DNA of 52,993 nt from positions 69,058-122,050 of IMG/VR virus record IMGVR_UViG_3300019845_000023; one strand, given 5' to 3'. The notes under the pieces are model-generated. The model was given only the letters and a program-made list of their open reading frames with translations, had not been told where the DNA came from and did no database searches. The position numbers and the translations under genes were made by a program. Below, piece by piece: positions 1 to 52,993 of this stretch (positions within the stretch are counted from its first letter, which is position 1; the number at the start of each line of letters is the position of its first letter). The DNA comes from a virus. Lineage: Duplodnaviria; Heunggongvirae; Uroviricota; Caudoviricetes.

Positions 1-1
1 C

Positions 2-232
2 GCCTCTATTTGCGAAGTATCCATAAGTCATACCCCACATCTTCTCATTTTTATTGACTAGCGGCACAGGAGTCTTTGCTGTAGGGAAGGGTTCCCAAGG
101 AAGTGCCGCCGAGATAAAAGGTGCACCGTCTGAATATCCGATATTAGGCCCACCGATATATGATGTTAATCCAGTCGCTCCATCGGTTCCATAGAACTAA
201 GGAGGATTTGGATATATCATTTCTGTACTCAT
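2..232 (-). CDS. 5' part of a gene running off the window edge; possibly glycoside-hydrolase-like (GH113-type N-terminus)
   Basis: GGGAGG RBS then ATG at 232; open to the window edge with one TAG (codon 12): MSTEMIYPNPP[Q]FYGTDG...KMWGMTYGYFANRG. Product call is weak. Confidence 0.6.
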
Positions 233-292
233 TTGCTATATCCCTCCCAAAAAATTTCACTATTTAAATAAGGTATCATACCTTATATTATA

Positions 293-321
293 ATATTAAC
301 ATAAATTTTGAAAAAAGTCAA
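293..321 (-). promoter_or_regulatory. σA-type promoter upstream of the gene starting at 232
   Basis: TTGACT-N17-TAATAT with TG before the -10; a perfect TATAAT lies 6 nt further downstream. Confidence 0.55.
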
Positions 322-324
322 ATA

Positions 325-1428
325 TTAAACTGGTTCGTTGTATATAAATTCTGTTAATGAATTGCCATTATAAATAACTTCTGTCATTTGATTTCCGTCA
401 TAATAAAATGGAACACCAGTTGGAGGTGGTGGCGGATTTTCTGGTATATCAAGCATAACTGGAATATACGGGAATCCGTTATTTCTGTTCGGGTCAATGT
501 GCCAATCTGTTGTTGCAGCTGAGTCAGTGCTGATTATGAAACCTTTGCTGTCAAGGTCGCTTTTGGACTTCATTTCTATTGTAGTTGCGCCAATTGTGCC
601 TGTAGGTAATGTACCGCTGTATTTATCAGTATTAACTAAGACGGAACTCATTTGTCCATAGTCCAAACGGAATCCGCCGGAAATATCGGCATTTATAACA
701 GTCTTTTGAAAAGTAGTAATATAAGAAAATCCAGCTATACCAGATACGTTACCTTCAATATAACAATAGTAAAAAGCACCATATAACTCATAATCATTGT
801 TTTCATAGGTTGCACGAATATTACAATATCTAATTCCAGCTTGCCAGTTCACTCCATTTGTAATCGAGCCGTCACCATTAAATGTTAGATTAAAACTACA
901 TACATCGATATATCCTAACATATATGTAACGTCAATTATAGCATTATATTCTTGACCAACAGAATATTTCTAAGCTGCTTCAAGACTACCTAAAAAACGA
1001 CAATACCTTATAAAAGTTCCACTACCAGAAGTTTGTGCTGAAGCCAATAATGCCACCGAAGCTCTCTATGAAGTATTTCCAGTCATATGTGCTGCAACAC
1101 CATTAGAATCGACTATGAAATCAATGAAATCAAGATATTCAACTCGACCACTGGCTTCATGTCCAGAAATTATAAATCCATAGTAGCTATAAGTGCCTGA
1201 AGTATTAGTAACTTTGGCATTTTTTATCTACCAGCCATTACCGTTGATAAATCCACGCAGCGGTATGTTATGCACTTCTCCATCTGTGTAGTAGTCACGC
1301 ATATCAAATACGCCGCCACCCTCTGGTAATTCAGTATACTTATTATCTGCTGTGGTGCATTGTAGAAATTCTTCCCAAGTCGTAGGCTTGTAAGGGTCTG
1401 CAGATGTGCCGCTGCCCGTTATCGCCAT
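325..1428 (-). CDS. Putative virion/tail protein, 367 aa (GSGT.DPY GLUG-like start, Pro-rich C-terminal linker)
   Basis: ORFs 1228-1428 and 325-921 are in one frame joined by 3 TAG (1228, 1066, 970); ends TAA; start overlaps the upstream TAA (TAATG). Confidence 0.8.
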
Positions 1429-4400
1429 TAATTTCCACCTCCATCGACAAAGTACATAATACCAGGTTCAGTTGCTTCAGAAGCAGACTAAACAACTTGA
1501 ATTGGAATTTGAGTTAATAATGCTTTGAGTGCTTCAAGCTATTTGAAACTAAATGATATTTCTTCATTAGTATTTGGATTACTTAAAGTAATACCACTTT
1601 CACCGCCTACCACTTCTGCTTTAATTCTAATACCATTATATAATCTAAATTCTGAATCATCAGTAATTTCTACAATAGGATTATTAGCATAGCTATTCAA
1701 GTGAGCATTACTATTATAGTAATATCTATATACTATTGTAATAGAATCGTTAGAATTTAAAATAATACTCTCATACTGGTCAACAATCTATCCACTTAAG
1801 AAAGTTTCAAAATCAGCATAGTCAGCACCTGCTTCAAACTGTTTAATAAATTCATATTTATCAGTTAAATCATAAGTCTCAGTAGGAGTAAAAGTATAGC
1901 TCAAATGAGAATATGCTCCTTGGCTCCAACCTTCTCTAAGTACACAGTTAACAGGTCCGTATGCCTGAATAATTGGAGACTAATCCCAAGTCTCAGTACC
2001 AACTCTATCTGCTGTTTGAATTGGACGATACCATTCTTTACCTAAATGTTGTGCCGCGCCCTAATATACAGAAGTTGTTGCTACTTTGTATCTTGGATGT
2101 TCTGCCGCATCATAGGTTCCTGTTTCTGCATTAGAGAAATCATAAGCTCCTACATTATAAGGTTTAGAAGAACTCTGATTTAAGAAGGTTTGAATATCTT
2201 CTGGTAAATCAGCATAAGGAGTATTAGGATAATTAAGTTTGTAATCAGTAGTATTATTTACAGTATTTTTAACTAAATAACTGTCGTATTCTGCAATAAA
2301 ATTCTTTACCTTATAATAATAGTATCCATATCTTTGCTGATAATAAGTAACTGTACAATTAGTTCCAGCAACAACTCGGTCACATTTAAAAGCATTTCTA
2401 AAGAATGCTTGTACTTTACTATTATTAAAGAAAGTGCTTGCGCTGGTTGATATATATGAATCAATATAAACTGTATATTCAGAAGAAACTAAATCTTTAA
2501 CATTTTTAACTTCAAGTGACTCAATGTACTCATATAAGCTAACTTCAGACCAAGAAGTGTAAGCATTTTTTAATACTATCTGATAATTACTATTATCTTC
2601 TCCTCCTACTATATTACGGACTCCCTTCTTAATGCCTGCTTCCGCACCGCTCATATTAGAAGAGCCTATATATTTATAAATATAATCCTTTTTATCAGTA
2701 ACAGTATGAGTTTTTGTAATTGTTATATTAGTAATATCCAAATAATATGAACCTAAATAATAACGATATGTTGTAGAACTACCAGAATAACGTGATAATT
2801 GAGCATCTGATTTAAGGGTAAGAGCAAAATTATTTCCGTATCCAAAAGTATCTCTTATCCAGTCTTTAAATTCTTGTGACTATACTAATGTACTTTCCGT
2901 ATAATAAGTATTAGAATTAAAATACTAAGTTGTATTCCAGTTAATTATTTTAACATTATTAATTGTTAAAGTTTCTGTATATTTTATTGGAAGTTTTGTT
3001 TTAGATGTTCCAGTAAATCTATTCCAAGTGTAATCATCATTATGAGGGTCGCCATTTGGTAGAGTAGTTGCATTTTTTAATTCAGTCGCAAATTGAGTTT
3101 CAATATCAGAAGTTGACATATTGCTTAAATCAGTATCAACAACAATTTCGCCCTAAACAGAAATTTCCTTAGTTGTTTCATACATTTTTGGATAATGCTC
3201 ATATTTAGTTCTACTATACTTTTCAGCTACAGGATTGACTTCGCTATTTCTTAAAATTACAGTACCGCTCCAAGACTCTAAATGAGTATTGCCGTCAATC
3301 TAAATAAAAGAATCATTACCTTCAAATATTCCCTTAAATCTATCCCATTGACAAATAATCTCACTATGTTTTGGTTCTACTGTTAAACCAAAAGCATACT
3401 TAGGGTCAAATTTAATTGCTGTAGTTCCACTTGGTTCAAAAAAGATAGAAGTCTCTGCAGAACTATCTGGACCAAATCGGAAATATGTACTACTTCCGTC
3501 ATTAGGAACAATGTCTCCAATAAGTTTAGAATTTCCTCCAATTCCATATTTAATTTGAGTTGTACTATTTCCACCACAAGAAGCTACAATACCAATAGTA
3601 GAACTATCTCTTGTTGCTAATTGCATACCCAATCTACCTGATTCTGAAGAACAGATATGCATACTAACAGGTCCTTCATAAGCAACTAAAGGATAACCTA
3701 TATACTTTTTCATTATATTTAAATCATCAAACTTAGTATTTATACTACAATGAGGATGGTCATAATCAAAAGTTCCAATCTAACTATGTTCAATACAGTT
3801 AGCTCTTGTACTATAATCTACCCAACTACCATTAAAGAAAATATTTGAACTACCATCCCATCCATCATGGTCTTTTCCATTAGTAATGGCACCACTACCA
3901 AAAACCATCTGTCCTCTATCGACAGAAACACAAGCAGGAAATTCTTCAGTACCTCTCATTCTTACCATAGACCCTGGATGAATATAAACTTGGGTTCTGT
4001 AACCTTCCTATAATTTAATTCCATGATTAGTATCGTGATATCCATTAGAATACTGACCACCATTAATATGAATATCAGCATTACCAGATAAAATTGCTGT
4101 CGCATTATTTCTCATTTGTAAAGTAGCTCTTTCATAAATAGAAACTGTTGCTCCGTCATGAATTTGGAGTATAGGAGAATTATCATTATCTCTGCCACTA
4201 AAAGGATTAATATACTTTCTAATATCTTCTCTGTCGGGATGAGCCTATCCAAGCCAATAATTAGGTCCTGGATTAGCATACATATCAATTAAACAGTTAC
4301 CTCTCATTGAAATAGCCGGAGTGCTACGAGGGTCTGCTCCGCCAAGCATTTCAATTTTTGCAGTTCCTTTAATTTTAATAGTAGGGCTTGTCAAAGTTTC

Positions 4401-4979
4401 TTCAAAGTCTTCTCCGCCCCACCATTTTATACCACTATATACAGTTTCTTTTGTGCCTATTTCAATTTTTGAGTCTCCATAAATTTTAGCTATAGCAGAA
4501 TCTGCACTGCTAAAACCATTTTTTAAATAGGTAATTGGATAATTAAACACGCCCTAAGTTGAGGCAGGTTTTATTGTACCAAAAGCGGTTTCAAATGGAG
4601 GTCCTTCAATCATTCCAATTCCGAAATAAGTTGGTGAAGGAGTTACTCCACCTGTCACAGGAGTTATATTATTATCTTTCCAAAATGGCATACTATAAAG
4701 ATTACAGTCATTTCCTTTTGCCCATTCTTTAGGTTCAACATTTCCAGTTCCAGTAAGTAACTGAGAGTAGCTTGCCTTAATCGGAGGAACATCTGCTCCG
4801 AGTGGATAAAACCGCTCAGTTTCAATGTCATAGCGATAAGGGATATTTGTTTCTTCGACTATATATAAATGGTTCTCTTTCTTATCGGTTAAATCGAAAA
4901 GGTCTTCATAGGCATAGACAGTAGTTACGTCATCTTCTGCTGCACCGAAAGGAATCCCATTACGAAATATAATTCCCAT
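1428..4979 (-). CDS. Large putative tail fibre/receptor-binding protein, 1183 aa
   Basis: Six track ORFs (4554-4979, 4245-4550, 3780-3968, 3300-3713, 2925-3119, 2061-2741) share one frame; 13 TAG, no TAA/TGA until 1428; GGAGG RBS; paralogous to 5057-7186. Confidence 0.85.
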
Positions 4980-5001
4980 TTATTATGACCTCCTATCATA
5001 G

Positions 5002-5036
5002 TGTGCCGCCCCTCAGATTTTTAGAAGGGCGGCGCA
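5002..5036. other. GC-rich intergenic hairpin (terminator or RNA-stability element)
   Basis: tgtgccgccc-N15-gggcggcgca between the two paralogous genes; no clear U-tract on the coding strand. Confidence 0.4.
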
Positions 5037-5056
5037 TTTAATTTATATTATTCTCT

Positions 5057-7186
5057 TTAAGTTTGTGGATGAATTATATTATATAAAGCCTATAAATCTG
5101 CCATACTAAAAGTAACGTCAGTAGTACCATCGCTAAATGTAAATTCAACCTCTGATGTTCCCTATTCAGCTTTAATCGTTGCGCCATCACGAAGACGAAG
5201 TTCTGACTCACCATACATTTCAAATACAGGAGCATGAGTAGATGTAGCTGAAGCAAGTCTTGGAATATCATTTGTAAATTTATATCTAATATGAACGATA
5301 TAACTACTATTATTACTTTCATTATTTATAGTATATGATATTAAAGTTCTATTATATGTAGCAAGTTCATCTAAAAAGTCTTGATATTTAGTAGAAGCCT
5401 CAAAATCTGATTTTGACATTGTTGTATTATTTGTAAAACTATATTCTCCAGTATACTCTCTTGAAATATCTGCCGCCATTGCAAAGTTAGATTCATCATA
5501 CATCTAAAAGACAGGTTCAGAATCATTCTATACAAATACAGTCCAATCTCTTCCTAAATGTGAATTGCTTGGGTGGCCACCATAAATGATATTTTCATTT
5601 GCAGGAGTTGTGGTTCTCATTATAAATGAGCCACCATGTAATTCGCTATGGAAACTTCCTGATGTTTGAATATAAGCATTATCTCCTTCAATTAAAGCAT
5701 CTAATGCACTCCATTGGCAAGTTATTTCAGTCGCTACATTTGGAGTAAAAGATATAGCACAGCTACCCTTTGGTGAGTAATTAATACTTGAAACACCATT
5801 TGGACAATAGTTAAAAACTGTATTACTACTGCCGGCTGGTTCAATGTTGTAAGCTGCGACAGCATTTTTGCCGTGACACATATTAAACATTACTATTGCG
5901 CCGCTATCTGTACCAATCTTAATATCTTCATAACCATATCCACTCCAGTCAATGGATGTATAAGCACCGCCACTTGGAGCTATTTTTGCAGCTAAATATC
6001 CGCTATCACCAATTGATAAATGAGTTTTACCCATGATATTTAATGTAGGCTAAAAAAGTTTTGGCATTAAAGTAGAAGGAAGACTACCTGGGCTAACACT
6101 GGAATTATAAATAAAATTACGATGATTATATAATCTATAGGAAAAACTAATTATACGACTACTTAAAGTGGCACCAAAATCATGGTCACTTGAATTATAA
6201 TCATAAATTCCATTATGAATACCATGCTATGCAGTTATTAAAAGTTTACCAGGACCGTCTCCACTGCTACTACTTTCAAGAGCAATCATTGGTCCATATT
6301 CGCCGCCATAGGTACCTGTTGACCTTGTCATTCTAATCATTGCGCCCGGTTCCATATATAAACCAGTTCTTATTTGACCAGAATTAATCTGTTTACCATT
6401 AAGGTCAGTTAATGCTCCACCACGGATAACAACATCTGCATTACCAGCCATTTCAAGACCCGCACTGTCTGCCATTTTAATAATAGAAGCGCCTTCCATT
6501 ATAACCGTACTTGAATTTGACATATGGAAATATGGAAAAATTTCTGCATCACTTAAACGAGTATAGTTACTACCATAAGGAGAGTAACCTTGATAGGCAT
6601 AATAAGCAACTTCAGACAGACATTTGTCACCAGAGCTATGCCTTGGTAAAGCGCGAGTATAGGTCTTCTAATTATTATGGTCCTAATAGGCATACATTTC
6701 AAAAATACCGGCTCCAAGCATTGAGATGACAGGAGAACTTCCTTCTCTTTTCATCATCTATAGTAATGGAGAACCATACATAAAGAACTTGGCATTATTT
6801 TTATTTTCGCCCCAATATAATTCTGAAACATCAGTTGTACTTCCTATTTCTATTGCTGTCATAGAAGTTTTCAATTTTGCAATGGATGAAACAGCGCCAG
6901 GACTTCCTATTGTCTCTGCAAACCAAAAGCTATGAGGCTTTACTCCACCTTCTCCGTCACCTATTACTATTTCATTCTCATCTGCCGCGATATTAAAAGT
7001 TGCAGACAAAGGAACAAACTCTCTGTTCTCAACATCCCAATAATACTCAGTATTATCAGAAGTAGTAACATATAAATGATTTGTTTCTTTATTTGGCAGA
7101 TTAGTTAAATCCTCAAAATTAGTTACAATAGTAACATCTTCTTTCGCCGCCCCAAAAGGTCTACCATTTCTAAATATAACTCCCAT
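5057..7186 (-). CDS. Putative tail fibre/receptor-binding protein, 709 aa, paralog of 1428-4979
   Basis: ORFs 6758-7186, 6227-6523, 5528-6034 and 5162-5503 are in frame; 8 TAG; ends TAA at 5057. Confidence 0.85.
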
Positions 7187-7443
7187 TAAGTATCAACCTC
7201 CTCTTCTGCATCAGGGTCGAATTCGGGGTGGTCTTCCTAATAAGCTGCGACAAGTTTATCATACTTAGTCATTAATTCATTTACTTTGTTAAGTAAATAT
7301 TCAACAGCATCAGAAAACTCTATATCTGTAACAAAGAATATTTGGTCTTTGTACTAATTCATAAAGTCTGGCTGTTCAGCGAGAGCAACATAATCATCCC
7401 AGGTTATGTCCTACTCATGCATTTTACGCTGTTCATTTGCCAT
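7186..7443 (-). CDS. Hypothetical acidic protein, 85 aa (absent from ORF track)
   Basis: GGAGGTG RBS; MANEQRKMHE[Q]DITWDDYVAL...EEEVDT*; 3 TAG; TAATG overlap with the next gene. Confidence 0.75.
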
Positions 7444-7526
7444 TTCCTTTGCACCTCCGTACAATTTGTTTTCTACATAATAAAGTAGAGATTTGAGTCG
7501 AAACGTCTAATCCTTTACTTATTGAT

Positions 7527-7555
7527 ATTATAGCATAAAAATAGAGAGAAGTCAA
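7527..7555 (-). promoter_or_regulatory. σA-type promoter embedded in the terminator hairpin
   Basis: TTGACT-N17-TATAAT with TG extension on the minus strand; the -35 is one arm of the 7543-7571 hairpin. Confidence 0.8.
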
Positions 7556-7575
7556 GTGTTGACTTCTCTCTTTTT
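7537..7575. terminator. Bidirectional intrinsic terminator
   Basis: 13-bp perfect stem AGAGAGAAGTCAA-gtg-TTGACTTCTCTCT with an A-tract before and a T-tract after. Confidence 0.85.
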
Positions 7576-7579
7576 AATA

Positions 7580-10500: not shown

Positions 10501-10942
10501 TTCTTGCATCATCTATACCAAGAACGCCATCATTACCGAAATCAAGTAAATCATAAAGCTGTTCGAGAGTAAGATTACCAACAAGGTATTCATCTTCAGG
10601 AATGTCGCCACCTTCTTCAAGAATTTTATTAGTAAAGTCCATATTCTTGATATGCATCGGAATCTCATCGTGGCGTGCTTCTCTATACTCAAGTCCAAGT
10701 TTATTAATTAAAGGTCTTGGATTCAAATAGTCTGGTAGTGTTCCTGTTGCATCAGCCTACAAAAGAGTTCTTCTATACTAATCATCGAAAAGAGCTCTAC
10801 TACCACCTATAGTATTATCACCATTTTTAGTTTCGTCTATGTATAAATTAGTAGTAAGCTAATCAATTATACTATCCCAATCTATCATACCATTCGCATC
10901 TTTTTCAAGAAGGGTAGGCTCTAATATAATATCTTTACTCAT
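7580..10942 (-). CDS. Large putative tail/structural protein, 1120 aa
   Basis: ORFs 10454-10726, 8960-9376, 8156-8785 and 7580-7807 are in frame; nearly all intervening sequence read codon by codon shows only TAG, no TAA/TGA; start overlaps the holin stop. Confidence 0.8.
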
Positions 10943-11258
10943 CTTCTTCCTCCTCCTTCTTTCCTATCACCCTTTCCCAAATCTTCTTTAGGGAATCAAA
11001 GCCATTCATACTAATGAACGCAATAATAAAACCATTAAGAACACTTGCCGCGATAGTAGCAAAACTAATAACAACGCCAGGTGCAAGGAATGGAATTATA
11101 ACAGCAATGATTAGAGCAATAATTAATGTTAATATCTAAGTAGGGAATTTCTTAGGTACTACATTTTTCATAACTTCAACTATAATCATAGTCAAAAATG
11201 CCATAGCACTTATTGAGCCTAAAGTTCCTAAACCTAAAGCTGCAAAAATACTCTCCAT
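10935..11258 (-). CDS. Holin, 107 aa (absent from ORF track)
   Basis: GGAGG RBS; about three hydrophobic segments, a KFPT[Q] linker and a highly charged tail (KKIWERVIGKKEEEEDE); directly downstream of the endolysin; one TAG at codon 41. Confidence 0.8.
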
Positions 11259-11304
11259 TGTTATCCCTCCTTTAAATTAAGGGGAGGTTTAACTCTCCCC
11301 TTTA

Positions 11305-12540: not shown

Positions 12541-12591
12541 TATATCAACCTCCTTTATAGGAATAATCCTATTATTTCCTCTTATAAGTAG

Positions 12592-13385: not shown

Positions 13386-13397
13386 TTAAATCACTCC

Positions 13398-41190: not shown

Positions 41191-41197
41191 TAATCTA

Positions 41198-41704: not shown

Positions 41705-42018
41705 AAGTGATTATAAGACCAAGGGGATATGGAAAGACTACCCTGCTTGTGTAGACAGCAGCGAAGAATAATTTTCCGATACTTTGTGCACGTGAGTGTA
41801 ATAAAAGAATCTACGAAATAAGAGCAAAATAGCTGGGGCTCCCAGTACCTCAAATCTTTACTGTAAGTGATATGTTAAAAGGAAAAACAAGAGGTACGTG
41901 CTATAAAGATATGTTAGTCGATGAAGCTGATGATGTATTAGCTTAGTTTATGAGGGAAACAAGTTATTGTACACCTTTAATAGCAACAATGACAATCGAG
42001 GAGGAGAAGTTAAAATGA
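41701..42018 (+). CDS. Miniature P-loop protein, 105 aa (absent from ORF track)
   Basis: RPRGYGKTT Walker A and MLVDEAD Walker B; 3 TAG; ATGA overlaps at both ends. Confidence 0.75.
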
Positions 42019-42137
42019 AAATTCACAGAGACGAAAAGGACAATTACAAGAAGAAGATTGACCGTTTCAAGGACGAGATGTCTCGCCGCAACAAGGAAAT
42101 ACAGAAAGAACGAGAACGTAAGAAAAACAGTAAGTAA
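42015..42137 (+). CDS. Small basic peptide, 40 aa
   Basis: GAGGAG RBS; Lys/Arg-rich; stop directly before a terminator. Confidence 0.55.
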   Translation: MKIHRDEKDNYKKKIDRFKDEMSRRNKEIQKERERKKNSK

Positions 42138-42140
42138 GCA

Positions 42141-42187
42141 AAAGGTCAAGACTATGTCTTGACTTTTTCTGTATTTTATGTTATAAT
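42141..42187 (+). promoter_or_regulatory. Composite terminator hairpin plus σA promoter of the dnaE operon
   Basis: GTCAAGAC-tat-GTCTTGAC then T-tract; TTGACT(42159)-N17-TATAAT(42182). Confidence 0.85.
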
Positions 42188-42222
42188 ATATATGTAAGAA
42201 AAATAAGATAGGAGAATTATAT

Positions 42223-42414
42223 ATGGTGAAAATTCTTGAAGAAGGATTGTATGGAAAAGTCCTCTTTAAATGCTCAGAATGTGATTGTGTATTTGAAGTC
42301 GATGAAGAAGAATGTGACCAAGACTGGTCTAACCATAGTATTCCTTGGACACACAAATGTCCTAAATGTAAAAATCTCTGCAAATCTAATAAGGGTTGTA
42401 GAAAAAATAAATAA
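42223..42414 (+). CDS. Small Zn-ribbon protein
   Basis: FKCSECDC...KCPKC; GGAG RBS. Confidence 0.7.
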   Translation: MVKILEEGLYGKVLFKCSECDCVFEVDEEECDQDWSNHSIPWTHKCPKCKNLCKSNKGCRKNK

Positions 42415-42431
42415 AGGAGGGTTTCTACTGA

Positions 42432-45400: not shown

Positions 45401-46352
45401 TTTCGATGAACTTTGCGGAGACAGAGTCGAAGCAATGACTAACTACATTAATGGTATAGCAGACCAGAAGAAGAGAATAACTCTACAGAATATGCAGATG
45501 CTTATAGCTCAGAATATGATACCAGCAGAATTAGACTTTGAAAAGAGATTATTCAATTTCAACAAGTATATCAAGGTTTCTAAGGACGGAACTTACTACT
45601 ATCTTGATGAAATTGCGATGCCATTCTTCGAAGCAAATTATGATACAAATAAGATAGAAGAAATCGTTGTAACAAATGACGGTCCGAAGGGCAAGATTAA
45701 AATGACTACTTGGGAGTCAATCTATAAGAAAGGTATGGACCCAGTAAGAGATTGGATGAAGAAGAATCAGCAGGACATTCTTAATGAACTTAATCGCCGC
45801 CTTGTTCAAGAGGTATGGGATAAGTATGGTAAGGGTTCAGTAGCTGATTGGGAAATGGATAGCTTAGGCTTCTACTACCACGACCATCCACTTGCTAATT
45901 TAAAGGACGATATATATAGTATCGCTGATTTTAACGACCTTTCTCCTGAGCCAGAAGTAGACCGTTGCTTTACTACAAAAGACGGTTCAGAGATTAAGAT
46001 GTTCAAGATATATCGTATCGCAGGAACAGTAATTGATAAGGATAAGAATAAGAGTTCAGTAATGTTATTAACTCCGTCCGGTGTTGTAACTGTTAAGGTT
46101 TGGAAGAACCAGTTCGCTGCTTGGGATAAGCAAATTTCTGAGCGCGGCGCAGATGGTGTAAAACACGTAGTTGAAAAGTCTTGGTTCAGTCGTGGTAATA
46201 AACTTATTATAACAGGCATAAGACGTGATGACACATTCATTCCAAAGAAGTATAAGAATACTGAATTTGATATATTCGAGAAGATAATCAAAATGGACGA
46301 GAAAGGATTTATCTTAGAGTCATTAACTGAAAGACCAGAGGTAGATGAATAA
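42432..46352 (+). CDS. dnaE: DNA polymerase III alpha subunit (DnaE type, intact-looking PHP domain)
   Basis: HSHSEYS, LTDHE, SDAHY, GPGRGSA, PDIDID, GQHASG, GYSFSLPH; no TAG in 1306 codons. Confidence 0.95.
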   Translation: MSLNDIPRFDTHSHSEYSNIRLIDSINKIPDMIKTAHRLGMKGIALTDHECVSGHLKWLQTEKKLKEKGEIPEDFKCACGNEIYLVDDRANIERYWHYILIAKNADGHKAIRELSSTAWYHSFTSRGMTRVPTEKKELEAIVKKYPHSLIATTACIGGQLGGRVLQLVKAEDHGDMEEIIRCKQDIDAFIRWNLELFGDDFYIEVAAGQSKDQIRFNKRIASIANNYLVRMVIGSDAHYLTAAERPLHKAYLNSKEGDREVDEFYFDAHMMDNEEAFGNLQVAFSEEDFGQMCVNSMEIYDKIEPFSLEHTSIIPEVEVRDYPQIFSPYGDKYPVINGLFMSNDIQERYWINECIQALINKRLITEPEYLERLEIEADVIKTIGEKLNDCLFKYFNTFQHFINLFWDCGSIVGPGRGSAVCFLSNYLLGITQLDPLKWGLKYWRFLNKERVELPDIDIDLSPSKRKKIFEAIRKERGELNVIQVCTFGTEGTRSAIAAAGRGYRSEAYPNGLEVETTQYLSGLIPQERGFLWSIHDVVYGNPEKGRAPIGAFIAEVEKYPGLLEIIESIEGLVNKRGQHASGVILYNTNPCDTGAIMRSPNGDLTTQFSLHEAEAMGDVKYDFLVTEICDKITTCIELMQKDGIVEKDLSLRNIYDKYLHPSVLNLEDKRMWDALGQGTVLDVFQFSTGVGLATAKQVKPQNPTEMTSANAIMRLMGERGKERPLDRYCRLKEDIGQWYKEARDRGLSEDEIKILEPYYLPRFGVPALQEDLMEICMDDKIAHFSLKEANAARKTVAKKHMEEIPALHDKFVDACPNKNFGDYVWETTMGPQMGYSFSLPHSLAYSFVGIQTLYLATNYPAIYWNCACLIVNAGGADLLDTDDVDTDAEETDTTVKKNKSVNYGKISAAIGDSKTRGITVLPPDINESDLIFKPELKRNAIIYGMKGINRIGTKLVYEIFNNRPYTSIEDFLSKVKVNKLQMFSLIKAGAFDELCGDRVEAMTNYINGIADQKKRITLQNMQMLIAQNMIPAELDFEKRLFNFNKYIKVSKDGTYYYLDEIAMPFFEANYDTNKIEEIVVTNDGPKGKIKMTTWESIYKKGMDPVRDWMKKNQQDILNELNRRLVQEVWDKYGKGSVADWEMDSLGFYYHDHPLANLKDDIYSIADFNDLSPEPEVDRCFTTKDGSEIKMFKIYRIAGTVIDKDKNKSSVMLLTPSGVVTVKVWKNQFAAWDKQISERGADGVKHVVEKSWFSRGNKLIITGIRRDDTFIPKKYKNTEFDIFEKIIKMDEKGFILESLTERPEVDE

Positions 46353-47299
46353 TGATTATCGGTTTATATGATATAGATTTGTGGCACCGTGGACGTGCGG
46401 TGCCCAATCTTGAATTAATGCAATACTACGCCTATTATCATAAAAGAAATGATAGAGTAGTTTTGATGAAGCCAACTGATGAAGAAAGTCAGTTTGCAAA
46501 GATAATTTATTTCAAAGAAAACCCTAATGTACTACTTCCAAAGACTTTATAGGTTTTCGGAGATAATAAAGAATTTACTGGATATGGCTTTTATAAGAAA
46601 AATGAAAAGCTTCCACCAGAGATTGAAGTGCCGCCTTCCTATGTTCCATATGACCCTTGGGTTAATAAACTTGGAATTTCTGCGGCAGAGTTTGAAAAAA
46701 TGAAACATAATAGCTATGTAAGAATTGAAACAGAAAACTTCGTAGACTTTAAGAAAGATGCAATGCACATTTATATAGCAGATAAAGACCCTCTCAATGT
46801 GAAAGGAGCTCTCGATTTTATTGATGAACATAAGAATAAACGTTTCAACTTTTTACACACGCCAATCTTAAATGATGAAGCAACTGCTTTGAGCTTTATG
46901 CGTTATCGAGCACTTTTTAATAAGAACTGTGTGATTAATTTCCACTGTTCTGAAGATTTCTTCTGTGATTATTATGAGTCAGTTATTTTCAAACTGGATA
47001 AATTTGATAAAGAAACTGAAGAACAATATCAAAAGAGAATTGCTAAAATGGCGATTTGGTATAAAGGTCATAATGCCGCATTGAGATTTCCTTATAACGT
47101 AAAATACTCGCCGTTTACCGAGAAGATTATTATTTGGGCAAAAGATAATAGTGCTAAGGATTCATTCGCAACATTTTACCAATCTTCTAAGATAACTCAA
47201 AAAGAACTCGCCACCCTACCATCTGGATTGAGATTACTTCTCAAACAAAATCCTAAAACGGCAACACGTCAAAGTCTTGACTTAAAATCATCTTTATGA
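46352..47299 (+). CDS. Degenerate phage radical-SAM-like protein, 315 aa
   Basis: IGLYDID...PNLELM..AYYH N-terminus resembles phage Fe-S oxidoreductases, but no CxxxCxxC; one TAG at codon 67. Confidence 0.6.
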
Positions 47300-47305
47300 T
47301 ATAAT
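47277..47305 (+). promoter_or_regulatory. σA-type promoter
   Basis: TTGACT-N17-TATAAT with TG extension. Confidence 0.8.
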
Positions 47306-47333
47306 TAATTATAAAAGTAAGGAGGAGATACTA

Positions 47334-47516
47334 ATGGAAAAGAGAGAAGAATATGCAAAAGTTTGCTTTGAACTCAGAGAACGCCAAGACGAACTTTTAA
47401 AGTTCGATGTAAGCACTTTCGTTCTTAACCCAGAGATTAACACTCTTATAGATGAAATAGCTGAGTTGGAAGTGATAAAGGCAAATCTTGAAAAAGAATT
47501 AGGAGGAGCAAAGTGA
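47334..47516 (+). CDS. Hypothetical coiled-coil protein, 60 aa
   Basis: GGAGG RBS; TGATG overlap. Confidence 0.7.
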   Translation: MEKREEYAKVCFELRERQDELLKFDVSTFVLNPEINTLIDEIAELEVIKANLEKELGGAK

Positions 47517-48247
47517 TGGAAAAAATTAATGTAGATATTTTCAATGAAGATGGTTCTTTAAAGAGCAAAGAAGATTTCCTCAAGACCTTTGATAAGGCTT
47601 ATGATGAAATCGCTGAGGAAATCAAGGGTGCTGATGTTGGTCTTCCCGATACATACTTCGGAATATTAACTGACCCTGAATGTTAGATTGATGTTGAGTC
47701 TACTCTTGAAACATTTGATTTTACAGAGAGAACAATATATTTGACAGAGGAAATTAAGCCCGAACTTGCAGTTAGTATTTTTGAGATAATCCGCTTCTGG
47801 AATAAGGTTGATAAAGAAGACGAAATTCCAATCGAGGAAAGAGAGCCAATTAAGATATACATTAATACTCCTGGCGGCGACCTTGATGGCGTACTAAGTA
47901 TTATTAGTGCAATTCAAGCGTCTGTAACTCCTGTATATACTTACAATATAGGTACAGCCTATAGTGGTGGTTTCTTTATCTGTATCGCAGGTCATAAGAG
48001 ATTCGCTTTAACACACACTTCATTTATGTTCCATGAAGGTGCGGCAATGGACGGTGGAGATGCTCACAAGTTCTTCCAGCACGTTGATTTCTACAGATAT
48101 CAGCTTACAAGACTTAAAGCTCACGTCCTCAATAAAACAAACATTACCAGTGATGTTTATGAGGAACATAAGAAAGACGACTGGTTTATGGACCAGGACG
48201 ACGCTAAGAAATTTGGCGTTATTGATGAAATTATAGAAAAGCTTTAA
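47516..48247 (+). CDS. clpP: ClpP-like serine protease with acidic N-terminal extension, 243 aa
   Basis: YINTPGG, AYSGG (Ser), FMFHEG (His), DWFM...A.KFG.ID; one TAG at codon 57. Confidence 0.85.
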
Positions 48248-48261
48248 GGAGGAAAACATAA

Positions 48262-49053
48262 ATGAAGAAAGAAGTAAATGAAAAGCTCGAAGCGTTATTC
48301 GCATATGATACCAATAATACACTTGACCAGTTACTTTCATTGCTCGAACTTCCCGATGAGCAGTTTGATGCACTTTATCCAAGTATTCAGTAGAAGCTCG
48401 ACCTTGTTTTCGCAAGTGAAGAGTTCCAGCAGGATACATTAAAGGCTCTTAAACTTACAGGTCACGGTTCTATTGAGGAAGAGAGGGCTGCGGCACTTGA
48501 AGTAATTGATGAGATTTCAGCAGATGACACACTTTCTCGTTCAAAGAGGGATTTCCTTACATCTCTTATCGAAGGTTCAGTTGTATCAATCATAAATCTT
48601 ATCGAGGTCCCAAGAGAGCGCGTTAAGGTTCAGATTAAAAAGCTTAGCGAGGATGCTGTTATTCCTCAGTATGCACATAAGACTGATGCTGGCGCAGATG
48701 TTTATGCAATAGAAGATGTTACACTTAAACCACATGAGACACAGCTTATTAAGACTGGTATCTCAGTTGCAATTCCTGTTGGATATGAGATTCAGGTTCG
48801 TCCTCGTTCAGGACTTAGTCTTAAGACAGGTTTAAGAGTTGCTAATGCCCCTGGCACTATCGACTCTGATTATCGTGGTGAAGTATGTGTAATTATGACA
48901 AATACTGCTAATCTTTCTCAGACAATTAATAAAGGCGATAAGATTGCACAGCTTGTAATCTCAGCCGTTCCGATGATTGATTGGGTTGAAGTTGACGAGC
49001 TTGACTCAACAGAGAGAGGAGAAGGCGGCTTCGGCTCAACTGACAAGAAGTGA
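48262..49053 (+). CDS. dut: Trimeric dUTPase with about 120-aa acidic N-terminal domain, 263 aa (absent from ORF track)
   Basis: AGADVY, RPRSGL, GTIDSDYRG, IAQL, RGEGGFGST; the RBS-linked ATG is upstream of TAG 48391. Confidence 0.92.
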
Positions 49054-49059
49054 TGCCAT

Positions 49060-49797
49060 GTGGCAGGAAAGCTTAAGTATGAAGATATAAAATAGGATAT
49101 AGAAAGTAGCGGTTGGCAATTATTGTCAACCGACTACGTTAATCTGAAAACAGATTTAGAGTTGAAATGTCCTGAAGGACACTTGAACTATGTATCCTAT
49201 GAGAAATGGCGCCGCGGCACGCATGAATGTCCAATTTGTAAGGAGAATAAATATTACCATACAGATAATATAGCCGTTAAAAAAACAGGTTTCAGAATAC
49301 TTGCTTTTGACCAAGCTTCAATTACATCTGGTTGGTCTGTATATGACGGAGATAAAATGATTAAATATGGGCATTGGACATCTGATGGCGCACATAGTAC
49401 AGAGCGTATAGCTTAGACAAAATAGTGGGTAGTTTCTATGATTGCTAAATGGAAACCCGATAAGGTAATTTTTGAGGATATTTAGTTATAGACATATAAG
49501 AAGAACCCACAGGAAGTCATTGAAATGGTTACAACATTTAAAAAGCTCGCTCATTTACAAGGAGTTCTTAAAAACTATTGTTATGAAAACGGCATTTTGT
49601 ATAAAATCGCCGCACCTGCAACTTGGAGACATCACTCTTAGGTAAAGGGTAACAACAGAACCGACCAAAAGAAAAGTGCTTAGCTAAGAGTTAAATCAAT
49701 CTATGATATTAGTGTATCATAGGATGAGGCAGATGCTATATTAATTGGTCGCTGGGCTGCATATGATTAGAAAGCAAATGAGATAATTGAGTTCTAA
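49060..49797 (+). CDS. ruvC: RuvC-like Holliday junction resolvase with N-terminal Zn-ribbon, 245 aa
   Basis: CPEGH...CPIC; ILAFDQAS...GW; FEDI[Q]L[Q]; LAHLQG; [Q]DEADAILIG; 9 TAG. Confidence 0.85.
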
Positions 49798-49806
49798 GGT
49801 GATATA

Positions 49807-50184
49807 ATGATAATATAGAGAAATACTTTGCCGATATTATCAAATATCTTTTCAAGAATTTCTGATACTAAATTTGATATAAATACTTAGTATAAGCTCT
49901 TAAAAATAAAGAAAGCGATTGAAGAAGAAGAAGAACTTTATTTAACTTAGTTAGATAGACTTCAAGAATATTGCTTAAGAGATGAGAATGGAAATCTCAT
50001 TAAAAATGAAGATGGCGGATATGCAATTGATACAGAAAAAGCTCAAGAATGTGCTGATATTGTAAAAGAAATAAATTCAATTCAAATACAAATACCAGAT
50101 ATTCAATTCAGTCTTGATGAACTTGCACCGCTTCAATTAACTTTTAAGGAGTTAGAAGTTCTTGACCCATTTATAAAAATATAA
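49807..50184 (+). CDS. Hypothetical protein (DUF1617-like), 125 aa (absent from ORF track)
   Basis: AAGGTG RBS; YKLLKIKK...RDENGNLI...G pattern; 3 TAG; ends at the terminator. Confidence 0.7.
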
Positions 50185-50221
50185 AAAGAAAGAGGTAAGA
50201 TTTATCTTACCTCTTTTTTAT
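50184..50221. terminator. Bidirectional terminator between convergent modules
   Basis: AAAGAGGTAAGA-ttta-TCTTACCTCTTT with an A-tract before and a T-tract after. Confidence 0.88.
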
Positions 50222-52095
50222 TAGTATTGGGATGTAATTCCAAAATATTCTTCTATTGTAGTATTCTTTAATTTATTCGCCCATTCAGTTCCTACATAAC
50301 GAACGTGCCAAGGCTCATAAATATATCCAGTAATACTATCTTTTCCATATGGATAACGTATGATAAATCCATATTCATGACAATGCTAAGCAAGCCACGC
50401 AGATTGATTTGGATATCGAGCAACATATCCAGTTTGTGAATCTGAACTTGCTGATGTTATATCAATCGCATATCCAGTATGATGTTCTGAATAGCCTGGT
50501 CTTGCTGAATATGTATCTCTTGTACTTGAAGGATAGCTATTGTAAATAGACTACTAATCAGAATAAGAACGATAGCCGCCGGTTCCATATAGACTTCCTC
50601 CGGATACAGACATCGGCTCATTACGAATATTATGCTAACTTGCATAAGCTTCCCATCCAGCTTTAAGACTATTATATGCTGCAATTGTTTCACTTCTTAA
50701 TCCACCGACAGCAGAAATCGCCGCCTAAGTCATTGGATAGGATTTATTGACAACAATCAATCCATCGAAATAATGACAGCCGCCCCTCTCTTCATGAGTA
50801 TGAGTCTCTTCATTTGGAATAACAGCAGGATTTGGCTCTCTTCTTGTCTAATCCATATCCCAGTTGGTAGTAAATATCGTATAATACAATCCAGGTAAGA
50901 ACTCTACAACTGTAGCCAAATTAATAATCGTAGCTTCACCTGGCACTGGAGTAGGTCCACTATGATTATTCTAAAATGGACAAGCCTAAAAACCTTCTAT
51001 AGTATGTGCCTAAGTTAAACCATAAGCAGGTCCATATCTAATGTTTTTATAAATTGTCTGTGCTTTTTCTAAATCCCAGTCAGATTTCTACTAAGACTCA
51101 GTAATAACATTATATGAGCCCCATCCTCTTTCTTGCCACCAACGGCAAAATGTTTCCAAAGTTGAACCCTCAGCTCTATAATTATAGGCAGTCTGGTAAT
51201 CAGTTGGAGAACGATATAATATAGTTGCTCTCAATAATTTAGCATATGAGATACCTTCTTCTCCCTCTCCAAATTCGTGAGTACATATTAAATAAGCCAT
51301 CTTTAGTCCTGGGTTAGTACTTAAAGTAGTTAAAGAATCTGGATAAGCTCCCATAAAGGCCTCAGACATTGATAATGAACCATATGAATCGCCATACTCA
51401 GGTACCATTGTTCCTCCCATTGCATTATTGCAAGAAGTTGGGTCATACTCAATACCACCAGGAGGCGGCGTATCAGAGTCACCCTGAATTTTAATATATA
51501 CTGGTTCCTAACTAAAAATAGCATATCCAAGTCTATCTCCAACAGCTTGACCTGCACAAGTTTTACTGCTGTATTCTGCATATGCCGCGGTACCAGTTCT
51601 TATTAATGGTTTAATATCAAGATGTAAATGAACATACTATCCAACAGGACCATCGAACCATTCACTTCCTTCTGTATGTCCGCTACAACCCATACCACCA
51701 ATAAGCTATCCTTTTTTAACTTTATCACCTATGTGCAAAGTAGGGAACTAAGGGTATTCAGATGGATTTACAAGATGACAATGATATATAATTAAATCTC
51801 CATCCAGAATCCCACTTGACTAAGATAATGTATTTTCAGCTAAAATAGTAATATCATTACCACCAGCATAACTTGTATCATATTGAGTAGAGCCATGATT
51901 ATAATGGACATTTGTGACTTCTCCATCACACATGGCGTATATTGGAGTACCAAGTCTATCTCTATAATTATCTGAAGTAGCTATATCCAATGGAGTATAA
52001 CCATGTCCACTATATGTTGTTATAAATCCAGTTGCCTTTGGGGCATTTAACCCCAAAGGATGGACAAAATATTGATTTAAATCTATTTCAGACAT
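50221..52095 (-). CDS. Multi-domain peptidoglycan hydrolase: M23 peptidase, putative SleB-like middle domain, VanY/M15B peptidase; 624 aa
   Basis: M23: PIYAMCDG.V, VKKG[Q]LIG, HLHLD; M15B: GYRSYSD[Q][Q], SARPGYSEHHTG.AID, YEPWHVRYVG; 16 TAG; ends TAA. Confidence 0.88.
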
Positions 52096-52100
52096 TCATA

Positions 52101-52991
52101 TCAACTCCCATAATATCCTGGGTCTAATAATCCATAAGTTTCGATAGAAGTACTACCTCCACCACCTTCACTACCAGTACCAGTATATTCAGTATAAGTA
52201 TTTTGACAGTCTATTGTGTATGGAACTCCAGCAATAGGAAGCTTGTTAGAAAAATAAATTTTCTATTTAGAGCCATAACTTCCTGTTACTTCATACCATC
52301 CTCTATAAAACATTTCAAATATTTCGTGTAAATTTACATATTCTTTATCTGCATTTTGTTTAAGTAGATGCTGAATTACAGTTAATCCCTAAGATGCTCC
52401 TGGTATATTTATTGTGGTAACGAATAAATCTTCCTCTGTTGGTAAATATGCAAATTGTCCTTCTGTACTAAATGAACCAGTAATTTTTTTAATTTCGTGA
52501 TTATGGCGAACTAATTTAATGCTGGCAACTGCGGTAGAAATAGCTTCATCTAATGGAATACCATTCTTATCTCGGATGTTATGGAAATCCAAGTACATTA
52601 CTCCTCGTTCTATCCAAATATCCGCATTTTTGATTTGTATTTCATCAGTAATTTTTGAACTTTGAGTAAGCAAACTGCTTCCAGTCTTATCATAAATATC
52701 TCCTCCCATATACAAAGAACCATCTTTTTTAATTGAGAAAATATTTTTAGCTTTTCCGTCAGTGTCTTTAGCACAGCAGAATAATCTTTCATCACCAGAA
52801 ACCTAATCTTCCAAAGCAATTTTATTGTTAATATATAATCCCGCCGCGCCAGTAACCGGCTGAATAGGAGTCTGCTATTCGCTTTGAGTGATAAAGCCAT
52901 AATTTATATCATTTTTATAATAAAAAGTTGGAAGTGTAGATAAAGATATAGCATTTTGACCCTAATCCTAAATATAACCAGTCTTTTCCAT
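52101..52991 (-). CDS. 3' part of a putative tail/baseplate protein, probably starting beyond the window
   Basis: Frame of track ORF 52389-52715 is open from the window edge to TGA 52101, with 6 TAG only. Confidence 0.7.
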
Positions 52992-52993
52992 CA

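What the first reader, a model, noticed from the sequence alone, without database searches (positions are those of the whole stretch)
1..52993. Strong over-representation of GCCGC/GCGGC (GCSGC) in an AT-rich genome
By hand I count about 110 GCCGC/GCGGC sites. A zero-order model at about 34% GC predicts roughly 15. Many are built from otherwise rare synonymous codons (GCC GCA, CGC CGC, GGC CGC GGC; e.g. 21414 ccgccgcggcggg, 29286, 34088, 40491, 43920, 49209). GCCGC outnumbers GCGGC on the plus strand about 2:1. The GCGG core is shared with known Firmicutes Chi sites (B. subtilis AGCGG, S. aureus GAAGCGG), and GCSGC/GCNGC are known restriction-modification targets. The motif could be a Chi-like anti-AddAB signal, a binding site for a phage DNA-coating protein, or a methylation mark. 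Function is inference.
Basis: partly seen in the sequence, partly recalled or inferred. Interest (0 to 1): 0.7.

Follow-up and report, generated by a model that had tools for sequence, protein, structure and literature searches.

The report
Iterated GCSGC palindrome in recoded phage
This large gut/rumen-type phage writes the 5-base word GCCGC/GCGGC into its genes and spacers about five times more often than chance or codon usage allows, a strand-symmetric DNA signature that resembles the unexplained 'highly iterated palindromes' of cyanobacteria more than a Chi recombination signal.

Summary
The window holds 74 GCCGC and 39 GCGGC, against about 20 expected. The excess survives the test meant to refute it. 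With protein sequence and each gene's codon usage fixed, there are 102 sites against 26.8 ± 4.5 expected (z about 16).

- **The word:** all five positions are specified. Every one-base variant sits at O/E 0.4–2.3.
- **Where it occurs:** in all reading frames, on both strands and in non-coding DNA.
- **Across the clade:** relatives of this TAG-recoded phage down to 39% DnaE identity share it. Some add or switch to true palindromes such as GCCGGC and GCGCGC.
- **Controls:** T4, T5 and SPO1 do not show it, nor does a candidate-host genome, nor the best of 301 related bacterial genomes.
- **No writer found:** no cytosine methyltransferase, Vsr or NgoFVII-type gene is detectable in the phage genomes.
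- **Strand excess:** the 2:1 plus-strand excess is mostly gene orientation.

The Chi reading is not supported. The closest known thing is the HIP class of iterated palindromes, where GCsGC and GCCGGC are documented alternates, but here without the cognate methyltransferase. I read it as the site of a sequence-specific double-strand DNA factor tied to the phage lineage. Its function is unknown. The scan noted the same phenomenon earlier on another phage genome (e1-3049825).

The parts
1..52993 (.). Whole window: 113 dispersed GCSGC sites (74 GCCGC, 39 GCGGC on the + strand), 2.1 per kb, with roughly Poisson spacing
   Evidence: The synonymous-shuffle null gives 26.8 against 102 in genes. All one-base variants sit at O/E 0.5-2.3 against 5.5 for the word itself.
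325..16040 (-). Late, TAG-rich gene block on the minus strand. On the coding strand nearly all sites read GCGGC (GCG-GCA Ala-Ala, GGC-GGC Gly-Gly). On the + strand the count is 26 GCCGC to 3 GCGGC.
   Evidence: All minus-strand window genes, this block plus the 50221-52991 block: coding-strand GCGGC 31 vs 7.3 expected, GCCGC 2 vs 2.9.
16697..50184 (+). Replication and nucleotide-metabolism block (ligase, NrdD, GyrB, GyrA, PhoH, HTH protein, DnaB, primase, RecJ-like, DnaE, ClpP, dUTPase, RuvC-like). Both orientations are enriched here: GCCGC 37 vs 6.9 and GCGGC 32 vs 10.1.
50221..52991 (-). Second TAG-rich minus-strand block (5 GCCGC to 1 GCGGC on the + strand)
21416..21423 (.). GCCGCGGC, an 8-bp perfect palindrome made of two overlapping motif copies. 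The same word starts at 29287, 40039, 40492, 40878, 43920 and 49211, seven copies in all, every one in the replication block.
1428..4979 (-). 1183-aa late gene (13 in-frame TAG) with unusually low motif use: 2 of 32 available dipeptide sites (6%)
   Evidence: It contains the longest motif-free gap of the genome, 2.9 kb.
7580..10942 (-). 1120-aa late gene (17 in-frame TAG) with low motif use: 3 of 37 available sites (8%)

Best explanation
GCSGC is an iterated quasi-palindrome of the HIP type. It is a 5-bp word specified at every position and kept at about 2-2.7 copies per kb in this phage. It sits on both strands, in every reading frame (through the choice of rare synonymous codons) and in non-coding DNA.

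Shown here:
- The signal acts on DNA, not on the protein or on translation.
- It is strand-symmetric.
- It is maintained as a word, because rare codons survive better inside it than outside it.
- It is a heritable trait of a whole clade of TAG-recoded phages, in which lineages add or swap related G+C-only palindromes (GCCGGC, GCGCGC, CGGCCG).

Inferred:
- The word is the recognition site of a sequence-specific factor that reads double-stranded DNA symmetrically, as restriction-modification-type enzymes do.
- That factor travels with the phage lineage and not with any particular host strain.
- Density is kept up by many weakly selected sites or by repair biased towards the word. Individual sites turn over.
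- G+C-only, CpG-containing words are the rarest words in an A+T-rich, CpG-poor host, so such a word could mark phage DNA as distinct from host DNA.

What the factor is and what it does remain unknown.
For: Five-position specificity: all one-off words have O/E 0.4-2.3 against 4.8-5.5. Ala codons end in C or G 57% of the time when followed by GC but 11-26% otherwise, and other four-fold families followed by GC stay at 7-21%.

DNA-level and symmetric: all frames exceed expectation. Non-ORF, non-tRNA DNA has 37 sites vs 6.3, 63 vs 6.3 and 44 vs 17.5 in three genomes. Both orientations are enriched 2-4x against the synonymous null in every gene block of two complete relatives, and the palindrome GCCGGC is enriched 5-15x.

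Maintained as a word: rare C/G-ending codons are kept better inside the motif than outside it in 8 of 8 comparisons (L001: 28/48 vs 24/93, p 2e-4).

Clade-wide but not host-strain-linked: O/E is 5-12 in nearly all of 39 related loci, while GATC, CTAG and CATG avoidance differs even between close relatives.

Lineage-specific alternates.

Not generic: T4, T5 and SPO1 have O/E 1.0-1.1. Candidate-host chromosome has O/E 0.31 against 13.4 in the phage contig binned with it. The best of 301 genomes of that class reach only O/E 1.6-3.9.

Precedent: GCsGC and GCCGGC are documented alternate HIPs in cyanobacteria at 1000-2000 per Mb (PMC4390886).
Against: No reader or writer was identified. PF00145, PF01555 and PF09565 are absent from the phage genomes searched, three of them at least 97% complete. 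Vsr (PF03852), searched in this genome only, is absent too. The only methyltransferase-like hit is below threshold and looks like an RNA enzyme.

Spacing is no more even than random use of the available sites, so there is no sign of selection for coverage.

Site conservation is only modestly above background, and sites have largely turned over at about 69% nucleotide identity. A neutral biased-repair process would give the same picture.

In this genome, coding-strand GCCGC is only weakly enriched outside the replication block (1.7-2.1x), so symmetry is imperfect here.

The host is unknown. The one candidate rests on metagenomic binning alone.
Confidence: 0.5

Rival explanations
1. Host-imposed epiphenomenon (Elhai's ratchet). 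The host carries an m5C methyltransferase for GCSGC (M.CglI or M.NgoAVII type) and a methyl-directed or very-short-patch mismatch repair. That repair fixes mutations that create the site, so the word piles up in anything replicating there, without having a function.
For: The same words (GCsGC, GCCGGC) accumulate in cyanobacteria that carry cognate methyltransferases, and the model predicts gain from any one-off neighbour. GCSGC methyltransferases exist (PMC4267653; PMC8936443). Sites turn over, spacing is random and all one-off words are equally unenriched. Two tail-fibre-like genes use few sites, as expected if the word accrues with residence time.
Against: No cytosine methyltransferase in any of the five phage genomes searched, and no Vsr in this one. 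The candidate-host genome has none either and is poor in the word. No genome with phage-level density turned up among 301 of that class. The trait is stable across a deep phage clade whose restriction-avoidance profiles, and hence host strains, differ.
Confidence: 0.2
2. Chi-like signal. The word, or its GCGG core, attenuates the host AddAB/RecBCD nuclease (or a phage-encoded helicase-nuclease). This would protect phage DNA ends and breaks and promote recombination-dependent replication.
For: Short, G+C-rich and sharing GCGG with B. subtilis AGCGG and S. aureus GAAGCGG. CCGC/GCGG is the one CpG context enriched in every clade member, with lineage-specific extensions such as GCGGA and GCGGGA. 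In this genome, coding-strand (replication-co-oriented) GCGGC is enriched 3-4x in every block, and the + strand ratio is 241:85. Chi-rich phages are known (PMC12315714). A bidirectional, even palindromic, signal could protect against breaks anywhere.
Against: Both orientations are enriched in complete relatives, and true palindromes replace the word in some lineages. There is no conserved polarity or terminal clustering in genomes with defined ends. Known Chi-rich phages lack recombination modules, whereas this phage has a Sak4-like ATPase, a RecJ-like nuclease, a RuvC-like resolvase and a UvrD-like helicase. The candidate host has 8 sites in 238 kb, too few for a working Chi.
Confidence: 0.12
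3. Replication signal read on single strands, for example the template recognition word of the phage DnaG-type primase. It would be kept dense enough in an A+T-rich genome for lagging-strand priming.
For: The phage encodes its own primase and DnaB. The sense strand, which is the lagging-strand template for co-oriented genes, carries GCGGC in both arms of this genome. The density of about one per 375 bp is of Okazaki-fragment order.
Against: Known primase words are trinucleotide-based and asymmetric (established knowledge). The symmetry and the palindromic alternates in relatives do not fit. Spacing shows no regularity.
Confidence: 0.05
4. By-product with no DNA-level meaning: codon-pair or translation effects, avoidance of GCWGC sites, or patchy G+C within genes.
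For: GCAGC and GCTGC are about 0.5-0.6x against the synonymous null. Most sites fall on Ala-Ala and Gly-Gly dipeptides.
Against: The frame-1 excess (NGC-SGC, 51 vs 10) cannot come from GCWGC avoidance. GCWGC is at O/E 1.1-1.3 overall. Same-tRNA pairs such as GCA-GCA and GCT-GCT are not favoured. Non-coding DNA is enriched too. Local block shuffles keep z at 7 or above. Other G+C-only words are not comparably enriched.
Confidence: 0.03

Closest known systems
Highly iterated palindromes (HIPs) of cyanobacteria, in particular the alternate HIPs GCsGC (Cyanothece PCC 7822) and rCCGGy/GCCGGC (Oscillatoria PCC 10802); Elhai 2015, PMC4390886; Xu et al. 2018, PMC5861425
   Same: The very same words. 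They are 100% G+C (quasi-)palindromes at 1000-2700 per Mb. They are written into genes in several frames and into non-coding DNA. They are made of non-preferred codons. Their codons are better conserved inside the word than outside. Different lineages swap one palindrome for another. The function is unknown.
   Different: Here the carrier is an A+T-rich phage clade, not a bacterial phylum. No cognate methyltransferase is detectable in the carrier genomes, whereas Elhai reports one in every HIP genome. No periodic or even spacing was seen. Site-level conservation is weaker.
Chi sites, and Chi-enriched phages that lack recombination modules (Zheng et al. 2025, PMC12315714; Chi list in bioRxiv 10.1101/2021.07.08.451572)
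   Same: A short G+C-rich word with a GCGG core, high density in a phage genome, and lineage-specific sequence.
   Different: Chi is asymmetric and works in one orientation. Here both orientations and true palindromes are enriched, there is no polarity, the phage has its own recombination genes, and the candidate host lacks the word.
GCSGC/GCCGC restriction-modification systems (M.CglI/M.NgoAVII methylate GCSGC, R.CglI/R.NgoAVII cut at GCCGC, PMC4267653; also NgoFVII and TauI, from memory)
   Same: Identical recognition word. The related alternates (GCCGGC, GCGCGC, CGGCCG) are also classic Type II targets, from memory.
   Different: Phages normally lose such sites. This phage has lost GATC, CTAG, CATG and GGCC but has multiplied GCSGC. 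No methyltransferase or NgoFVII-family gene was found in it.
DNA uptake sequences (DUS/USS) of Neisseria and Haemophilus (from memory)
   Same: Short self-identifying words spread at about one per kb through genes and spacers, read by a dedicated protein.
   Different: Those are 9-12 bp, asymmetric and serve transformation. No reader is known here.

Membership tests
HIP class (Elhai 2015) | A G+C-rich palindromic or quasi-palindromic oligomer that is an extreme over-representation outlier | tested here: met
   Rank 1 of 512 strand-pooled 5-mers, O/E 5.5 (window) and 4.8 (genome).
HIP class (Elhai 2015) | Density of the order of 1000-2000 per Mb | tested here: met
   113 in 52,993 bp is 2130 per Mb; 326 in 122,050 bp is 2670 per Mb. 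The range is quoted.
HIP class (Elhai 2015) | Present in coding DNA in several frames and in non-coding DNA, not explained by codon usage | tested here: met
HIP class (Elhai 2015) | A methyltransferase predicted to recognise the word is encoded in the same genome | tested here: not met
   PF00145 and PF01555 are absent from this genome and from four relatives, three of them at least 97% complete. The weak Methyltransf_31 hit looks like an RNA enzyme. A host methyltransferase could not be tested.
HIP class (Xu et al. 2018) | Constituent codons better conserved inside the word than outside | tested here: met
   Odds ratio above 1 in 8 of 8 genome comparisons, significant in three.
HIP class (Xu et al. 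2018) | Periodic distribution along the chromosome | tested here: inconclusive
   Spacing is indistinguishable from random use of available sites (CV 1.15 vs 1.17). The genomes are too small to test 10-90 kb periods.
HIP class (Elhai 2015) | Related lineages replace one iterated palindrome by another | tested here: met
   GCCGGC in L002, L017 and G003; GCGCGC, CGGCCG and CGCGCG in L016, L018, L024, L033. L002 and L017 keep only 1 of 30 and 1 of 22 of this phage's sites.
Chi | Asymmetric word acting in one orientation, with polar distribution | tested here: not met
   Both orientations are enriched in every block of G003 and G004 and in the replication block here; palindromic alternates occur.
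Chi | Recognised by the host RecBCD/AddAB enzyme | not testable with these tools
   The host is unknown, and a biochemical or plasmid assay is needed.
Chi | Frequent in the host chromosome | tested here: inconclusive
   The candidate host (by binning only) has 8 sites in 238 kb, O/E 0.31. No phage-like density was seen in 301 genomes of that class. The true host is not established.
Chi-enriched phages (Zheng et al. 2025) | Phage lacks its own recombination module | tested here: not met
   Sak4-like AAA_24, RecJ-like, RuvC-like resolvase and UvrD-like helicase are present.
Restriction-site avoidance | The target word is depleted in the phage | tested here: not met
   GCSGC is enriched five-fold, whereas GATC (0), CTAG (2), CATG (79 vs 430) and GGCC (40 vs 174) are depleted.

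The most novel reading that the evidence does not exclude
The phage lineage encodes an as yet unrecognised protein that reads GCSGC (GCCGGC or GCGCGC in sister lineages) on double-stranded DNA and uses it as a self-tag. G+C-only, CpG-containing words are the rarest words in its A+T-rich, CpG-poor hosts, so a dense scatter of them lets a phage function tell phage DNA from host DNA without any base modification. That function could be protection from a phage or host nuclease, replication, repair or compaction.
Probability: 0.25. Interest if true: 0.85.

Novelty: new variant of a known kind. Interest (0 to 1): 0.62.

Why it matters
Phages are known for deleting short palindromes to escape restriction. 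This phage has purged GATC, CTAG, CATG and GGCC yet has multiplied another restriction-type word five-fold, against its own codon preferences. That is a clear sign of an unknown force acting on the DNA.

The same words are the unexplained 'alternate HIPs' of cyanobacteria. A small phage system that lacks the methyltransferase thought to drive HIPs offers a way to test whether iterated palindromes are selected signals or repair by-products.

There are two practical consequences. The signature marks this clade of recoded gut and rumen phages. It would also mislead k-mer-based host prediction, because the phage differs sharply from its candidate host.

Tried and rejected
- **Phage database:** megablast of 20 kb found no match.
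- **Codon usage or amino-acid sequence as the cause:** rejected by synonymous shuffles.
- **General G+C clustering:** rejected. Other G+C-only 5-mers are not comparably enriched, and runs of 3-6 G/C are at or below expectation.
- **GCWGC avoidance as the driver:** rejected.
- **Junction-dinucleotide or same-tRNA codon-pair effects:** rejected.
- **Even spacing:** not found.
- **Phage-encoded writers or readers:** searches for C5 methyltransferase, N4/N6 methyltransferase, Vsr and NgoFVII-type nuclease were all negative.
- **The sub-threshold methyltransferase-like ORF (genome 30329-31180):** probably a Hen1/CmoA-like RNA or small-molecule enzyme sitting in an RNA-repair gene set.
- **Host signature:** the candidate-host MAG and 301 genomes of its class show nothing like the phage. 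Other bacterial classes could not be reached.
- **The 'Methanobrevibacter' bin holding a related phage contig:** I did not use it as a host lead. The phage carries bacterial-type tmRNA and gyrase, so I judged it mis-binned (inference).
- **A stable plus-strand polarity:** not reproduced in complete relatives.
Full report
**Setting.** The window is the last 52,993 bp of a single 122,050-bp virus record with 38.9% G+C, estimated 81% complete. The genome carries 49 tRNA genes and a tmRNA, including two tRNAs with anticodon CUA. Reading TAG as sense raises long-ORF coverage in the window from 0.29-0.79 to 0.83-1.0. It also joins fragments into late genes of 709-1183 codons that hold 9-17 in-frame TAGs each. 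The window therefore has three parts:
- a TAG-rich late block on the minus strand (325-16040);
- a replication block on the plus strand (16697-50184), with ligase, RNase H, NrdD, GyrB, GyrA, Sak4-like ATPase, PhoH, an HTH protein, DnaB, a DnaG-type primase, a RecJ-like protein, DnaE, ClpP, dUTPase and a RuvC-like resolvase;
- a second TAG-rich minus-strand block (50221-52991).

All gene-aware statistics below use ORF calls made with TAG as sense. These are my own greedy calls, so a few short ORFs may be spurious.

The window has 74 GCCGC and 39 GCGGC against about 10 expected for each. The whole genome has 241 and 85. GCCGC is the top 5-mer under a zero-order model and under a maximal-order Markov model (74 vs 45.8, z 7.1). 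No 6-, 7- or 8-mer stands out beyond it, so the 5-mer is the unit. Every single-base variant of the word sits at O/E 0.4-1.3 in the genome and 0.5-2.3 in the window, while GCSGC sits at 4.8-5.5. All five positions are specified, and the centre may be C or G but not A or T. Runs of seven or more G/C are 2- to 77-fold over-represented, and 60 of 70 of them contain the word. Runs of 3-6 are at or below expectation.

**It is not codon usage, protein sequence or translation.** In genes the word lies mostly in frame 0 (GCG-GCA and GCC-GCN, Ala-Ala) and frame 1 (GGC-GGC, CGC-CGC, GGC-CGC, CGC-GGC). More than half of Ala-Ala dipeptides carry it, although GCC and GCG together are only 17-21% of Ala codons. 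GGC-GGC is 6-8 times commoner than codon usage predicts.

Shuffling synonymous codons within each gene gives 26.8 +/- 4.5 sites against 102 observed (none of 1000 shuffles reaches it). GCGGC and GCCGC are first and second of all 1024 5-mers against this null. Other G+C-only words are raised only where they overlap it, and GGCCC, CCCGG and GGGCC are depleted. Shuffling only within blocks of 20-100 codons still gives z 7-13.

The third base of Ala codons is C or G 57% of the time when the next two bases are GC, but 11-26% before GG, GA or GT. Val, Thr, Pro, Ser and Leu codons followed by GC stay at 7-21%. The effect therefore needs GC on both sides. Same-tRNA pairs such as GCA-GCA or GCT-GCT are not favoured. 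The frame-1 excess (51 vs 10) cannot be a side effect of avoiding GCWGC. DNA outside ORFs and tRNAs is enriched as well: 37 vs 6.3 here, and 63 vs 6.3 and 44 vs 17.5 in two relatives. The signal acts on the DNA.

**Strand asymmetry.** It resolves into 31:4 in the minus-strand gene regions and 43:35 in the plus-strand block. Against their own codon-based expectations, coding-strand GCGGC is enriched 3.1-4.2x in every block of this genome. Coding-strand GCCGC is enriched 5.4x in the replication block but only 1.7-2.1x elsewhere.

I fetched two complete relatives with terminal repeats, G003 and G004. In them both orientations are enriched 2.0-3.8x in every block, and no genome-wide polarity or end clustering is seen. 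So the word is essentially strand-symmetric. Most of the skew here is gene orientation plus a coding-strand preference for GCG-GCA and GGC-GGC. That preference may reflect decoding by the phage's own tRNA-Ala(UGC) and tRNA-Gly(GCC) (inference).

**A trait of the phage clade, with swapping palindromes.** DnaE retrieved 39 related viral loci at 35-95% identity. Nearly all show GCSGC at 5-12 times expectation, usually as the top 5-mer. GATC, CTAG and CATG avoidance, by contrast, differs even between 87%-identical relatives. Some lineages add or switch words:
- GCCGGC: 20 vs 0.5 in L002, 14 vs 0.3 in L017, and 10-15x against the synonymous null in G003.
- GCGCGC, CGCGCG and CGGCCG: 14-50x in a deeper subclade.
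- GCGGA, GCGGGA or AAGCGC in a few others.

L002 and L017 retain only 1 of 30 and 1 of 22 of this phage's sites, which is below background. Overall CpG is depleted in all these phages (odds 0.5-1.0), yet CCGC/GCGG is enriched 1.6-3.0x in every one.

**Maintenance and turnover.** In close relatives 34-59% of sites are kept against 32-37% for any 5-mer. At about 69% nucleotide identity, retention is near background. I applied the matched test of Xu et al.: with the amino acid conserved, are the rare codons GCG, GCC, GGC and CGC kept more often inside the word than outside? They are, in 8 of 8 comparisons (L001 28/48 vs 24/93, p 2e-4; L006 p 0.005; L011 p 0.025). Spacing is no more even than a random choice among the available dipeptide sites. 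So density is maintained while individual sites come and go. Many weakly selected sites would give this picture, and so would a repair bias towards the word. These data cannot separate the two.

**Not a generic or host-shared signature.** Fifty-kb samples of T4, T5 and SPO1 give O/E 1.12, 1.04 and 1.10, at ranks of about 200-230 of 512. One related phage contig sits in a 'Bacilli bacterium' MAG. That MAG's chromosomal contigs (238 kb, 28% G+C) have 8 sites (O/E 0.31), in line with a general loss of CpG-containing G+C words. The phage contig has 41 sites in 19 kb (O/E 13.4). The host link rests on binning only.

I counted the 8-mer GCCGCGGC in 301 genomes of that class, against a reversed control word. 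This flagged four A+T-rich genomes with scattered chromosomal copies at about one per 60-90 kb. Samples of 100 kb from each gave GCSGC O/E 1.6-3.9, ratios of 0.7-3.0 against the synonymous null, and no GATC or CTAG avoidance. Nothing with the phage's density was found in those searched. Other bacterial classes could not be reached.

**No writer or reader found.** C5 methyltransferase (PF00145) is absent from this genome, from four large relatives (two 100% and one 97% complete) and from the MAG. N4/N6 methyltransferase (PF01555) is absent from all five phage genomes. Vsr (PF03852) is absent here. The NgoFVII family, whose target is GCSGC, is absent from all five. One 283-aa ORF outside the window scores below threshold for a generic SAM-methyltransferase domain. 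Its nearest solved structures are HEN1 and CmoA-type enzymes, at non-significant E-values. It lies in a genome with two RNA ligases, a kinase/HD protein and a Ro60-like protein, so an RNA-repair role is more likely (inference). ThyX and dUTPase suggest ordinary thymine DNA (inference).

**Comparison with what is known.** Elhai (PMC4390886) described 'alternate HIPs' in cyanobacteria that have lost HIP1. [quoted passage not shown] They are 75-100% G+C and occur at 1000-2000 per Mb. Each is accompanied by a cognate m5C methyltransferase. He proposed a methyl-directed mismatch-repair ratchet that could make them functionless by-products. Xu et al. (PMC5861425) argued for selection, from conservation and periodicity.

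The phage pattern matches this class in the words themselves, in density, in distribution over frames and spacers, in codon conservation and in lineage swapping. It fails the methyltransferase criterion in the carrier genome.

Chi sequences of low-G+C Firmicutes share GCGG, and Chi-rich phages exist, but those lack recombination modules. This phage has such genes. With the symmetry, the palindromic alternates and the poor candidate host, Chi becomes a minority reading. GCSGC is also the target of the CglI/NgoAVII systems. A phage that has eliminated GATC (0), CTAG (2), most CATG (79 vs 430) and GGCC (40 vs 174) would be expected to lose such a word, not to multiply it.

**Verdict.** The best-supported reading is a HIP-type iterated quasi-palindrome: a strand-symmetric DNA word tied to the phage lineage and most likely read by a sequence-specific double-strand DNA factor. 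I give that reading about 0.5. A host-imposed repair by-product gets about 0.2 and a Chi-like signal about 0.12. The mechanism is inferred. An earlier follow-up in this scan (e1-3049825) reached the same HIP-like reading on another phage genome. I saw that note only after my own analysis.

Noticed in passing
window 325-16040 and 50221-52991 (minus strand); tRNAs at genome 51724-51879, outside the window: Late genes carry 3-17 in-frame TAG codons each, while most replication genes carry 0-2. Two tRNA(CUA) genes lie upstream of the window. This is TAG-to-amino-acid recoding of the code-15 kind, already noted by the scan.
   Followed up: partly
whole genome (window included): GATC is absent (0 vs about 430 expected), CTAG nearly so (2), CATG is five-fold depleted (79) and GGCC four-fold depleted (40 vs 174). 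TAG sense codons are therefore essentially never preceded by C. The avoidance profile differs between close relatives, which suggests different host restriction systems.
   Followed up: partly
L005, L006, L009 (DnaE match about 5.0-5.1 kb against 3.9 kb here); L041 likewise: The DnaE gene of several relatives carries an extra insertion of about 1.1 kb that is absent from this phage, possibly an intein or an intron with a homing endonuclease.
   Followed up: no
window 49060-49797 (+): An ORF in the replication block has 9 in-frame TAGs, unusual for this block. It has a RuvC-like resolvase domain with a weak HNH/endonuclease-like N-terminal part.
   Followed up: no
genome 23318-24475, 30329-31180, 38430-39362, 45025-46506, 56454-57377 (outside the window; loci L076, L077): An RNA-repair-like gene set: Rnl1- and Rnl2-type RNA ligases, a kinase/HD protein, a Ro60-like VWA/DUF2828 protein and a sub-threshold Hen1/CmoA-like methyltransferase.
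   Followed up: partly
window 1428-4979 and 7580-10942 (minus strand): The two largest late genes (1183 and 1120 aa, 31-33% G+C) use only 6-8% of their possible GCSGC sites. This is compatible with recent exchange of tail-fibre modules.
   Followed up: partly
G147 (locus L092-L096), an unnamed 28.7% G+C genome of the class of the candidate-host MAG: It shows a moderate chromosomal GCSGC excess (O/E 3.9; coding-strand GCCGC 17 vs 5.7 under the synonymous null), so weaker versions of the signature exist in some A+T-rich bacteria.
   Followed up: partly
L040 (contig of a bin labelled Methanobrevibacter): A 139-kb relative of this phage is binned with an archaeal MAG. Because the clade carries bacterial-type gyrase and tmRNA, this is probably a binning error.
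   Followed up: no
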